Below, piece after piece: positions 59,696-59,842 of a DNA stretch of 64,000 nucleotides (positions are counted from its first letter, which is position 1; every line of letters begins with the position of its first letter). The stretch comes from a virus, in UHGV virus genome UHGV-0326727. One strand, given 5' to 3'. Under the pieces are notes generated by a model, which saw only the letters and a list, made by a program, of their open reading frames with translations, did no database searches and had not been told where the DNA came from. The translations under genes and the position numbers were made by a program.

Positions 59696-59743
59696 CTCAA
59701 CAAATTTACAGAAGACCGTTTACAGCAAAACTTAAACAATCTA

Positions 59744-59789
59744 TTTCTCCGGTAAAGAAAAGGCGAAGGTTCGATTCCTTCACTCGGCA
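59744..59789 (+). tRNA. permuted tRNA, 3' segment (anticodon arm, variable loop, T-arm, 3' acceptor strand, discriminator A); anticodon GGT (Thr-like)
   Basis: Anticodon stem tttct/agaaa with 7-nt loop ccGGTaa (C at position 33), variable aggc, T-arm gaaggTTCGATTccttc (5 bp perfect), 3' acceptor actcggc, discriminator a. Confidence 0.45.
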
Positions 59790-59792
59790 GAT

Positions 59793-59817
59793 GTCGAGTT
59801 GGTGTAATGGTAGCACT
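59793..59817 (+). tRNA. permuted tRNA, 5' segment (5' acceptor strand, U8, D-arm, position 26)
   Basis: gtcgagt pairs 7/7 (one G-U) with upstream actcggc; tg; D-stem gtgt/gcac with loop AATGGTA; located 3 nt downstream of the 3' segment. Confidence 0.45.
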
Positions 59818-59842
59818 TAAGATGATAAACAACGGTCTGGTA

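What the first reader, a model, noticed from the sequence alone, without database searches (positions are those of the whole stretch)
59709..59840. Candidate circularly permuted tRNA gene: 3' portion encoded upstream of the 5' portion
Positions 59744-59789 encode, in order, a 5-bp anticodon stem (tttct/agaaa) with 7-nt loop ccGGTaa, a 4-nt variable loop, a perfect T-arm (gaaggTTCGATTccttc), a 3' acceptor strand (actcggc) and discriminator A, but no 5' acceptor strand or D-arm precedes them. Three nucleotides later (59793-59817) lie a 5' acceptor strand gtcgagt that pairs 7/7 with that 3' strand, U8, and a canonical D-arm (gtgt-AATGGTA-gcac) plus position 26. Joined as 59793-59817 + 59744-59789 they give a textbook 71-nt cloverleaf (anticodon GGU, Thr-like). 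The sequences flanking the breakpoint are complementary over 8 bp (agaccgtt at 59713-59720 / aacggtct at 59831-59838), the kind of leader/trailer helix seen in permuted or split pre-tRNAs. Permuted tRNA genes are known from some algae and archaea; I am not aware of one described in a phage.
Basis: partly seen in the sequence, partly recalled or inferred. Interest (0 to 1): 0.9.

Follow-up and report, generated by a model that had tools for sequence, protein, structure and literature searches.

The report
Phage Y-RNA-like tRNA mimic, not permuted tRNA
The tRNA-shaped sequence with swapped halves is real and conserved, but it is most likely the tRNA-mimicking part of a small non-coding "Y RNA" that partners the Ro60-like protein encoded just upstream, one of four such RNAs hidden in this Felix O1-type phage's tRNA cluster and part of a family found in many phages.

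Summary
Observation confirmed. 59744-59789 plus 59793-59817 rejoin into a cloverleaf that ARAGORN calls tRNA-Thr(GGU); 955,200 control rearrangements gave none. The interpretation (a permuted tRNA gene) is not supported. In related genera the "acceptor" is a closed hairpin that covaries fully (capped by UACG in Suspvirus). The "anticodon" drifts (GGU, a 6-nt loop, UAU, absent). There is no bulge-helix-bulge splice motif. The order closing stem, hairpin, T arm, capped acceptor-like stem, D arm, closing stem matches YrlA-type bacterial Y RNAs. The gene 1 kb upstream (57286-58701, DUF2828+vWA) has the Ro60 fold and is the ortholog of Bas63 gp130, a reported Ppl-defence counter whose RNA partner was only guessed at. 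The element (U4, 59706-59843) is one of four paralogous units interleaved with tRNAs (U1 59033-59111, U2 59200-59265, U3 59616-59698). All four share a covarying bipartite stem followed by CAGCAA. A covariance model finds the same stem+CAGCAA RNAs, many with the tRNA-like module, beside Ro60-like genes in 32 of 65 distant phage loci, always on the gene's strand, and none in 570 kb of control contigs. It also matches a mycobacteriophage RNA that Rfam's YrlA model hits weakly. Protein binding, RNA ends and function are inferred, not shown.

The parts
57286..58701 (+). Gene for a 471-aa Ro60-like protein (DUF2828 + DUF7788/vWA); proposed protein partner of the RNAs; ortholog of Bas63 gp130
   Evidence: ORF. 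Pfam DUF2828, DUF7788, VWA_2 and no TROVE hit. AlphaFold2 pLDDT 89.3, pTM 0.89. The top 12 Foldseek PDB hits are all full-length Ro60/TROVE structures, E 8.5e-8 to 4e-6, TM up to 0.65. Invariant DxSxS...T...D MIDAS residues D279, S281, S283, T349, D381. Same position as bas63_0130. phrog_850 'RNA-binding protein'.
58720..58840 (+). Two promoter-like sites (58720-58748 and 58811-58840) between the Ro60-like gene and the first tRNA; possible start of the tRNA/sRNA transcription unit
   Evidence: Consensus scan only, and the total count is not above shuffles. No + strand terminator-like site inside the cluster. Weak evidence.
59033..59111 (+). Unit U1: short stem+CAGCAA RNA between tRNA-Glu and tRNA-Met (4 nt after one, 8 nt before the other)
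   Evidence: Model R1 28.7 bits, E 0.009.
59200..59265 (+). Unit U2: short stem+CAGCAA RNA between tRNA-Met and tRNA-Asn
   Evidence: R1 27 bits, E 0.02. The outer helix TTGC/GCAA becomes TTAC/GTAA in Bas63, a compensatory change.
59616..59698 (+). Unit U3: short stem+CAGCAA RNA, 7 nt upstream of U4
   Evidence: Not recovered by R1 at E<=1.
59706..59843 (+). Unit U4, the finding: Y-RNA-like RNA with a complete tRNA-like module of permuted connectivity
   Evidence: R1 94 bits. The MFE fold reproduces the architecture.
59706..59720 (+). 5' strand of the closing module: outer helix TTAC (59706-59709), internal loop AGA (59710-59712), inner helix AGACCGTT (59713-59720)
   Evidence: 15 distinct versions in Ounavirinae, all fully paired, with 6 outer-helix variants. 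The closing helix is 100% paired, with 6 of 7 pairs changed on both sides across lineages.
59723..59728 (+). Conserved single-stranded motif CAGCAA, 2-3 nt after the closing helix; proposed protein-recognition element
   Evidence: Present in U1-U4 at fixed spacing. Present in distant phage units and generalising to C-N-GCA-N. Present as ACAGCAA in the mycobacteriophage and Bacillus phage units.
59744..59760 (+). Anticodon-arm-like hairpin (TTTCT / CCGGTAA / AGAAA); corresponds either to an anticodon-arm relic or to the optional 'V' stem-loop of YrlA
   Evidence: The stem is kept in 10 of 13 variants. The loop is variable: CCGGTAA, CGGTAA, CTGGTAA, CTTATAA, or replaced in the Mordin group.
59761..59764 (+). 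Variable-loop-like AGGC
   Evidence: Position 48 varies between C and A while position 15 stays A, so a Levitt pair is not maintained here.
59765..59781 (+). T arm GAAGG-TTCGATT-CCTTC
   Evidence: partial Rfam tRNA match, 22 bits. The stem covaries across lineages at 4 of 5 pairs.
59782..59799 (+). AS hairpin: acceptor-like 7-bp stem ACTCGGC/GTCGAGT closed by the loop AGAT (59789-59792)
   Evidence: 100% paired in 13 Ounavirinae variants, with 3 of 7 pairs changed on both sides. 98.5% paired, with 6 of 6 pairs changed on both sides, across lineages. Capped by UACG, GAAA or long loops elsewhere.
59800..59801 (+). U8 and G9 equivalents
   Evidence: TG or TA in all 11 units compared.
59802..59816 (+). 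D arm GTGT-AATGGTA-GCAC (A14, G18, G19 and A21 present)
   Evidence: D stems GTGT/GCAC, GCTC/GAGC and GGC/GCC across lineages.
59817..59830 (+). A-rich 3' spacer TTAAGATGATAAAC
   Evidence: A-rich spacers ending AAAGT, AAAC or GTAAT in all lineages.
59831..59843 (+). 3' strand of the closing module: AACGGTCT (59831-59838), bulged G (59839), outer GTAA (59840-59843)

Best explanation
U4 (59706-59843) is a phage-encoded Y-RNA-like non-coding RNA of the YrlA type. Its 5' and 3' ends pair into a bipartite closing stem followed by a single-stranded CAGCAA motif. Inside that stem the RNA folds into a tRNA mimic whose acceptor-like stem is closed by a loop, so the tRNA parts appear in permuted order. 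It is transcribed with the phage tRNA operon and released by the tRNA-processing nucleases that cut the neighbouring tRNAs. Together with three shorter paralogs (U1-U3) it binds the Ro60-like ring protein encoded directly upstream through the shared stem+CAGCAA module. The tRNA-like module then serves as a handle or decoy for a tRNA-recognising host or phage factor, helping the Ro60-like RNP act during infection; the protein's Bas63 ortholog counters the Ppl defence system. Shown here: the sequence, its conservation, covariation of every helix, the four-unit family, the Ro60 fold of the neighbouring protein, and the gene-RNA linkage across many phage lineages. Inferred: transcription and processing, protein binding, the role of CAGCAA, and the function of the tRNA-like module.
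For: (1) The architecture matches the published YrlA order: Ro-binding stem, optional V hairpin, T arm, capped acceptor-like stem, D arm. (2) The neighbouring gene has the Ro60 fold and an intact MIDAS motif, and is the ortholog of Bas63 gp130. The PhageMaP authors likened gp130 to Ro60 and guessed it has Y-RNA partners among the tRNA genes. (3) Covariation: within Ounavirinae the AS stem is 100% paired with 3 double-sided changes. Across 8 lineages 94% of cells are paired against 40-48% in slid controls, 18 of 22 pairs change on both sides, and 0 of 500 shuffles reach the observed values. (4) Four paralogous units share the closing module and CAGCAA: 4 observed against 0.005 expected, and 15 variants are all fully paired. 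(5) Linkage to the gene: the helix+CAGCAA signature gives 85 hits against 15 decoys, with 42 hits in 34 of 65 distant loci within 600 nt of the gene on its strand. Model R1 gives 85 of 85 hits on the gene strand, median distance 390 nt, and 0 hits in 570 kb of unrelated contigs. Units sit next to the gene even in loci with no tRNAs, such as L024, L026, L029, L035, L042 and L048. (6) Bridge to the known family: in Mycobacterium phage Nicholas one RNA beside the 'Ro-like' gene is hit by R1 (63.4 bits) and by Rfam YrlA (37.9 bits, E 7.7e-5). (7) Indirect support for expression: Listeria phage CKA15 has three very abundant ncRNAs within 2 kb of its Rsr-like gene, and Listeria phages carry homologs of this protein with short units beside the gene.
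Against: There is no expression, end-mapping or binding data for this phage. Rfam YrlA (RF02553) does not match the window element even at E<=10, and the defining GNCGAA motif is absent. The protein has no sequence-level TROVE or PDB match; the link is by fold only. Folding-energy z-scores of U1-U4 are weak, -1.6 to -2.4. My scans selected for pairing in the closing and AS helices, which inflates those two helices. U4 is missing in some isolates (SP116, ESCO49) that keep the protein gene, so it is dispensable at least in the laboratory. The CKA15 link is by homology of the protein family, not by demonstrated identity of the RNAs.
Confidence: 0.72

Rival explanations
1. The stem+CAGCAA units are structured RNAs with a role that does not involve the Ro60-like protein. 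They could be processing punctuation or stabilising elements of the operon, cis-regulators of the adjacent gene, or sRNAs with another partner. The tRNA-like module would then be a processing or modification-enzyme handle.
For: Structure and conservation are shown, but binding is not. U1 and U2 fit exactly between tRNAs with gaps of 3-8 nt. Many units lie in the immediate 5' or 3' UTR position of the gene, which would also suit cis-regulation. The canonical Ro-binding motif is absent.
Against: Units travel with the gene in loci that have no tRNAs. Up to four paralogs per genome, and tandem triplets 2.6 kb from the gene, argue against a simple UTR element. The architecture equals that of RNAs experimentally bound by Ro60 orthologs. 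An RNA of this family is weakly recognised by the YrlA model.
Confidence: 0.17
2. A true circularly permuted or split tRNA gene. The transcript is cut in the AGAT loop by RNase P, the 3' end is trimmed and receives CCA, and the two-piece or re-ligated molecule acts as tRNA-Thr(GGU).
For: The rejoined sequence is a good cloverleaf. In Felixounavirus the AS stem is 7 bp followed by A, like the M. smegmatis YrlA that is cut by RNase P and gets CCA in vivo. Suspvirus and some Mooglevirus versions have a canonical CUGGUAA loop.
Against: C33 or a 6-nt loop within Felixounavirus; UAU in Sf16; no anticodon arm or variable loop in the Mordin group. The AS stem is capped by a UACG tetraloop, with no discriminator or linker, in Suspvirus and Mooglevirus. 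There is no bulge-helix-bulge motif. From established knowledge, the hosts lack a tRNA-splicing endonuclease. The 26/27 junction would stay interrupted by about 50 nt plus the closing stem. The phage already encodes tRNA-Thr(UGU). Three paralogs with the same stem have no tRNA parts.
Confidence: 0.04
3. A non-functional relic: remnants of a tandem tRNA duplication or recombination in a recombination-prone tRNA cluster, conserved only because the genomes are closely related.
For: tRNA clusters here do recombine through T loops (the SP116 deletion). Some isolates lack U4. Most helices are invariant within Ounavirinae.
Against: There are three fully compensated versions of the AS stem across genera. 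The same architecture is found in lineages whose partner proteins share only 30-46% identity, with every helix covarying. Linkage to the gene is strand-specific.
Confidence: 0.04

Closest known systems
YrlA-type bacterial Y RNAs (Rfam RF02553; Chen et al. 2014, PMC4201824), especially M. smegmatis YrlA and the mycobacteriophage YrlA-like RNAs
   Same: Encoded near a Ro60-type gene and on its strand. The 5' and 3' ends form a stem. Internal T arm, acceptor-like stem closed by a loop, and D arm with tRNA-invariant nucleotides (U8, A14, G18, G19, T54-C56, A58). An optional extra hairpin lies upstream of the T arm. Several Y RNAs per genome, some lacking the tRNA-like module (YrlB). The 7-bp AS stem matches M. 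smegmatis YrlA, which is cut by RNase P and gets CCA.
   Different: No match to the Rfam model. No GNCGAA(N)G motif; a CAGCAA motif follows the helix instead. The partner protein is annotated DUF2828/DUF7788 rather than TROVE. The units are embedded in a tRNA operon. In Ounavirinae a local anticodon-arm-like hairpin completes the cloverleaf, rather than an anticodon-like stem formed by the two ends (the arrangement seen in L024).
Thermus phage phiLo Ro60 with Yrl1/Yrl2 (PMC12135203; PDB 9KOP, 9L5Y)
   Same: A phage-encoded Ro60-fold protein with two or more adjacent Y-like RNAs. The protein is among the top structural matches to the window's protein.
   Different: The phiLo RNAs were found through CGAA motifs, lie upstream of the gene and are not described as tRNA-like. 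The sequence family of the protein also differs.
Circularly permuted tRNA genes of Cyanidioschyzon merolae, other algae and some archaea
   Same: The 3' half (anticodon arm to acceptor 3' strand) is encoded upstream of the 5' half, separated by a short linker. The flanking sequences pair.
   Different: Those precursors carry a bulge-helix-bulge motif, are circularised by the splicing endonuclease and ligase, and are then opened at the acceptor ends to give a normal tRNA with a conserved anticodon (established knowledge). Here there is no BHB, the linker is a stable hairpin cap in relatives, the anticodon drifts, and the host lacks that machinery.
Two-piece (permuted) tmRNA
   Same: A tRNA-like domain with permuted gene order in bacteria and phages. 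ARAGORN's permuted-tmRNA routine mis-called the element in L019.
   Different: No tag reading frame, no alanine identity (G3-U70) and no Rfam tmRNA match at the element.

Membership tests
YrlA-type Y RNA | Encoded within a few kb of a Ro60 ortholog, on the same strand | tested here: met
   The Ro60-fold gene ends at 58701 and U4 starts at 59706, both on the + strand. The same linkage holds in 32 of 65 distant loci.
YrlA-type Y RNA | T-like and D-like stem-loops with tRNA-invariant nucleotides, separated by an acceptor-like stem closed by a loop | tested here: met
   Covariation.
YrlA-type Y RNA | 5' and 3' ends pair into a stem that carries the Ro-binding site | tested here: inconclusive
   A covarying closing stem is present. 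Whether it binds the protein could not be tested.
YrlA-type Y RNA | GNCGAA(N0-1)G motif near the 5' end | tested here: not met
   Absent from U1-U4. CAGCAA occupies the analogous place. The paper's text does not mention CAGCAA.
YrlA-type Y RNA | Match to the Rfam RF02553 covariance model at gathering score | tested here: not met
   No hit at E<=10 on the element. Related phage units do not reach gathering. A mycobacteriophage family member scores 37.9 bits against a gathering score of 69.
YrlA-type Y RNA | Physical association with the Ro60 ortholog; tRNA-type modifications (pseudouridine 55, dihydrouridine) | not testable with these tools
   Needs immunoprecipitation and modification mapping.
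Circularly permuted tRNA gene | 3' half upstream of 5' half, rejoining into a canonical cloverleaf | tested here: met
   ARAGORN calls tRNA-Thr(GGU) on the rejoined sequence. The result is specific.
Circularly permuted tRNA gene | Bulge-helix-bulge motif formed by leader and trailer at the junction | tested here: not met
   The flank is a 4-bp plus 8-bp stem with a 5' AGA / 3' G internal loop, not two 3-nt bulges 4 bp apart.
Circularly permuted tRNA gene | Conserved anticodon and canonical 7-nt loop with U33 across orthologs | tested here: not met
   CCGGTAA (C33), CGGTAA (6 nt), CTGGTAA, CTTATAA, or replaced. ARAGORN identities Thr, undecodable, Ile, none.
Circularly permuted tRNA gene | Processable linker between the acceptor 3' end (with discriminator) and the acceptor 5' end in all orthologs | tested here: not met
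   Present only in Felixounavirus (A + GAT). In Suspvirus and Mooglevirus the stem is capped by a UACG tetraloop.
Ro60/TROVE protein (for the upstream gene) | Pfam TROVE domain detectable by sequence | tested here: not met
   Only DUF2828, DUF7788 and a weak VWA_2 hit. No PDB sequence hit.
Ro60/TROVE protein (for the upstream gene) | HEAT-repeat ring plus C-terminal vWA domain with a MIDAS motif (fold level) | tested here: met
   Full-length Foldseek matches to 9KOP, 9L5Y, 1YVR, 1YVP, 2I91 and 2NVO, probability 1.00. DxSxS, T and D are invariant. Homologs in mycobacteriophages are annotated 'Ro-like RNA binding protein'.

The most novel reading that the evidence does not exclude
Felix O1-type phages, and hundreds of other phages with DUF2828-type Ro60 homologs, encode a previously undescribed class of Y RNAs defined by a covarying closing stem plus a CAGCAA motif. 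These RNAs are produced from tRNA operons and form the RNA half of an anti-defence RNP (gp130 counters Ppl). In Felixounavirus specifically, the 7-bp acceptor-like stem of U4 is opened by RNase P and receives CCA, giving a two-piece tRNA-shaped RNA tethered to the Ro60-like ring.
Probability: 0.3. Interest if true: 0.8.

Novelty: new variant of a known kind. Interest (0 to 1): 0.62.

Why it matters
What the tRNA-like domain of bacterial Y RNAs does is still unknown. This work gives a concrete RNA candidate for a phage Ro60-like protein that already has a genetic phenotype: in Bas63, deleting g130 sensitises the phage to the Ppl defence system. Bas63 is a tractable E. coli phage, so the RNA-protein partnership and the role of the tRNA mimic can be tested directly. 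The work also shows that unannotated gaps in phage tRNA clusters, often overlaid by spurious small ORFs, hold a family of structured RNAs. It supplies a signature (stem+CAGCAA) and a covariance model that recover relatives in Vibrio, Aeromonas, Bacillus, Listeria, Staphylococcus, Campylobacter, Enterococcus and Mycobacterium phages. Finally, it warns that permuted-tRNA signals in bacterial and phage genomes should first be checked against the Y-RNA architecture.

Tried and rejected
(1) Permuted group I intron-exon idea (halves of an intron flanking the tRNA parts): no intron or ribozyme family matched at E<=10 in 59532-59992, and the flanks are instead U3 and U5. (2) Rfam YrlA membership: no hit on the window or on distant loci at gathering score. 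(3) A helix CTTAA (59731-59735) / TTAAG (59817-59821) predicted by the MFE fold as an anticodon-stem equivalent: not conserved in SUSP1, Sf16 or Mordin, so I dropped it. (4) Folding energy as evidence: z-scores for U1-U4 are only -1.6 to -2.4, so I did not rely on it. (5) Sequence-motif scan CAGAAGACC-N5-CAGCAA in viral contigs: multi-copy only in Ounavirinae, and the single hits elsewhere are at chance level. The exact sequence is subfamily-specific, so I moved to structure-based scans. (6) The minus-strand ORF 59680-59937, annotated as a hypothetical protein in several records, is not kept open in other genera, so I rejected it as a gene. (7) Origin from one of the phage's own tRNAs: the best identity, 77%, is within the range seen between unrelated tRNAs of the cluster, so this is uninformative. 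(8) Search for further units elsewhere in the cluster with a relaxed motif: only decoy-level matches. (9) Supplementary tables of Chen et al. 2014, which list the 22 phages, are not held as text, so I could not check whether any DUF2828-type phage was among them.

Full report
**Where the finding sits.** The window is a Felix O1-type myovirus (Felixounavirus). The 459-nt stretch around the finding is 95-100% identical in about 210 phage records and 80-90% identical in 41 more from Suspvirus and Mooglevirus. The finding lies in a gap between tRNA-Asp (59454-59531) and tRNA-Lys (59990-60065), inside a cluster of 24 tRNA genes, all on the + strand.

**Checking the observation.** ARAGORN ignores the sequence as it stands. 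It calls the rejoined 59793-59817 + 59744-59789 a 71-nt tRNA-Thr(GGU).

I rearranged every position of the gap in the same way. Only junctions 59785-59793 gave a tRNA. None of 955,200 rearranged candidates from 20 kb of control sequence did.

**What the relatives show.** The element is present in all three genera, but its parts behave very differently.

- The "acceptor" changes completely yet stays paired. It is ACTCGGC/GTCGAGT with loop AGAT in Felixounavirus. It is ACACGT/GCGTGT capped by a UACG tetraloop in Suspvirus and the Sf-type Moogleviruses. It is ACCCTTC/GAAGGGT with an 8-nt loop in the Mordin group.
- On 13 distinct sequences this stem is 100% paired, and 3 of its 7 pairs change on both sides.
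- A stable tetraloop cap with no discriminator or linker marks a hairpin, not two tRNA ends awaiting processing.
- The "anticodon loop" drifts: CCGGTAA, CGGTAA (6 nt), CTGGTAA, CTTATAA, or replaced altogether.
- After rearrangement ARAGORN returns Thr, an undecodable anticodon, Ile, or no tRNA call.
- The flanking helix is not a bulge-helix-bulge motif.
- Rfam finds no intron, ribozyme or other family there, only a partial tRNA match to the hairpin and T arm.

**The neighbouring gene.** The ORF directly upstream of the cluster (57286-58701, 471 aa) matches Pfam DUF2828, DUF7788 and, weakly, VWA. It has no TROVE hit and no sequence match in the PDB.

- An alignment-based AlphaFold2 model is confident (pLDDT 89.3, pTM 0.89).
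- Its 12 best Foldseek matches in the PDB are all full-length Ro60/TROVE proteins: Xenopus Ro60, Deinococcus Rsr and Thermus phage phiLo Ro60. Probability is 1.00 and TM reaches 0.65. Only isolated vWA domains follow.
- The MIDAS residues are invariant in the family.
- The gene is the positional ortholog of Bas63 gp130. [quoted passage not shown] It identified no such RNA.

**Match to Y RNAs.** Bacterial YrlA-type Y RNAs are described with this order of parts: a stem formed by the two ends, an optional hairpin, a T arm, an acceptor-like stem closed by a loop, and a D arm. They are encoded near Ro60 on the same strand. The M. smegmatis member, with a 7-bp acceptor-like stem, is cut by RNase P and receives CCA. 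The window element has this order exactly. That explains the "permuted tRNA" appearance.

**A four-member family in the window.** AGAAGACC...GGTCTGG occurs four times on the + strand within 800 nt, against 0.005 expected per shuffled window.

| Unit | Coordinates | Context |
|---|---|---|
| U1 | 59033-59111 | between tRNA-Glu and tRNA-Met |
| U2 | 59200-59265 | between tRNA-Met and tRNA-Asn |
| U3 | 59616-59698 | 7 nt upstream of U4 |
| U4 | 59706-59843 | the finding |

- Each unit has an outer 4-bp helix that covaries between paralogs: TGAC/GTCA, TTGC/GCAA, GAGC/GCTC, TTAC/GTAA.
- Next comes an internal loop, 5' AGA opposite 3' G.
- Then an inner helix, AGACC+RR paired with YY+GGTCT.
- Then, 2-3 nt later, CAGCAA.
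- Across the subfamily there are 15 distinct versions of this module, all fully paired.
- Only U4 carries the tRNA-like module.
- U1 and U2 fill their inter-tRNA spaces to within 3-8 nt.
- Promoter-like sites lie just after the Ro60-like gene, and no + strand terminator-like site lies inside the cluster (weak evidence). This suggests co-transcription with the tRNAs and release by tRNA-processing enzymes. That step is inferred.

**The family beyond this subfamily.** The exact sequence motif is confined to Ounavirinae, so I used structure-based scans on 65 loci (755 kb) encoding proteins 39-46% identical to the window's.

- A strict scan for T arm, then capped hairpin, then D arm found the window element and two others, with none in decoys. 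Relaxed, the three hits nearest the gene (37, 42 and 145 nt away, on its strand) were well formed.
- All three have a closing helix of a different sequence followed by CAGCAA or CCGCAA.
- A scan for a 7-nt or longer helix, then CAGCAA, then its reverse complement gave 85 hits against 15 decoys. Of these, 42 hits in 34 loci lie within 600 nt of the gene on its strand. That includes loci with no tRNA genes.
- An anchor-based comparison of 11 tRNA-like units from 8 lineages shows the same order of parts, with every helix different in sequence.
- On their alignment 94% of cells are paired (40-48% when slid, 67.5% when shuffled). Eighteen of 22 pairs change on both sides. No shuffle out of 500 reaches any observed measure. 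My scans selected for pairing in the closing and AS helices. The T and D helices were placed by anchors only.
- A covariance model built from this alignment found 85 matches at E<=1 in 819 kb, all on the gene's strand, including strong non-seed hits.
- At E<0.1 there are 57 hits in 32 of 65 loci, at a median of 390 nt from the gene.
- The same model found nothing in 570 kb of unrelated viral contigs.

**Link to the known family.** The protein has homologs in 710 phage records, including 95 mycobacteriophages where it is annotated "Ro-like RNA binding protein".

- In Mycobacterium phage Nicholas, one RNA about 100 nt downstream of that gene is hit by my model (63.4 bits) and, weakly, by Rfam YrlA (37.9 bits, E 7.7e-5). 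It reads UGGACCC-cc-ACAGCAA...GGGUCCA.
- Bacillus phage Nate has a U4-like unit inside its tRNA cluster.
- Listeria, Staphylococcus, Campylobacter and Enterococcus phages have short units beside the gene.
- In Listeria phage CKA15, three very abundant ncRNAs lie within 2 kb of the Rsr-like gene.
- Chen et al. searched only genomes annotated as TROVE-containing and defined a GNCGAA motif. Their text does not mention CAGCAA.
- Other published phage Y RNAs (phiLo) were found through CGAA motifs.
- I found no paper describing Y RNAs in Felix O1-type phages.

**Verdict.** It is best explained as the tRNA-mimic module of a YrlA-like Y RNA. It belongs to a phage branch that lacks the canonical Ro-binding motif, carries CAGCAA instead, partners a DUF2828-type Ro60 homolog and is often embedded in tRNA operons.

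- Weak points: there is no expression or binding evidence, the folding-energy support is weak, and U4 is absent from some isolates that keep the gene.
- Still open: Felixounavirus U4, with its 7-bp stem plus A, may be opened by RNase P as the M. smegmatis YrlA is.

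Noticed in passing
window 59845-59985: A fifth structured RNA (U5) lies directly after U4 (1-nt gap) and 4 nt before tRNA-Lys. It has a closing stem of about 23 bp with several compensatory pairs between genera, an interior that differs between Felixounavirus and Suspvirus/Mooglevirus apart from a conserved ATTCTAGATT, and a folding z-score of -6.05. 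No Rfam match. Function unknown.
   Followed up: partly
window 59532-59615: The 84-nt stretch between tRNA-Asp and U3 contains two conserved hairpin-like inverted repeats (GAGGGCT...AGCCCCTC and CTTAAAGAG...TTCTTTAAAGG). It could be another small structured element or a processing signal.
   Followed up: no
window 59680-59937 (- strand): An 85-aa ORF across U4/U5 is annotated as a hypothetical protein in several public records (AYO145A orf047, wV8 gp048; two smaller ones in Bas63, 0137 and 0138). It is not kept open in Suspvirus or Mooglevirus, so it is probably a spurious gene call over non-coding RNAs.
   Followed up: yes
L002 (Salmonella phage SP116) 1257-1436; L001 (ESCO49) 1180-1222: Natural deletion variants. 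In SP116 the T loop of U4 is fused to the T loop of tRNA-Lys, removing the rest of U4, U5 and most of tRNA-Lys (T-loop-to-T-loop recombination). ESCO49 has lost tRNA-Asp, U3 and most of U4. Both keep the Ro60-like gene plus U1 and U2.
   Followed up: partly
L019 8382-9130: ARAGORN reported a permuted 'tmRNA*' starting at the U4 element of a Mooglevirus contig. This is an artefact of the T-arm/acceptor arrangement and shows how such modules can be mis-annotated.
   Followed up: partly
L215 (Listeria phage LP-048) 1927-2478 and 6310-7521: A ROOL-like large RNA (Rfam RF03087, 90 bits, just under the gathering score of 99.1) lies in the tRNA region 1 kb upstream of the Ro-like gene. An RtcB-like RNA ligase lies 1.3 kb downstream. 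Together they form an RNA-repair-like neighbourhood reminiscent of the bacterial rsr-yrlBA-rtcBA operon.
   Followed up: no
L068 8329-8427; L072 8192-8314: Some stem+CAGCAA units enclose tRNA-like parts in the normal order (D arm, anticodon-like arm, T arm), with the closing helix replacing the acceptor stem. So both connectivities exist within the family.
   Followed up: no
L049 9966-10363; L062 9567-9972; L046 9836-10206: Tandem triplets of tRNA-like units lie about 2.6 kb downstream of the Ro60-like gene in 220-233 kb phage contigs. The motif variants there are CTGCAA and CCGCAA.
   Followed up: partly
window 60224-60559: A 336-nt gap after tRNA-Ile holds the best promoter-like site of the region (60239-60267, 11 of 12 matches) and weak Rfam tmRNA-like matches (60165-60438 and 60370-60559, well below threshold). 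Contents not identified.
   Followed up: no
L024b 5377-5509; L081 7072-7201: Two distant units share a T stem with a bulged U between the fourth and fifth pair (GCCG[U]G/CCGGC and GUGG[U]G/CCCAC). This may be a subfamily-specific feature.
   Followed up: no
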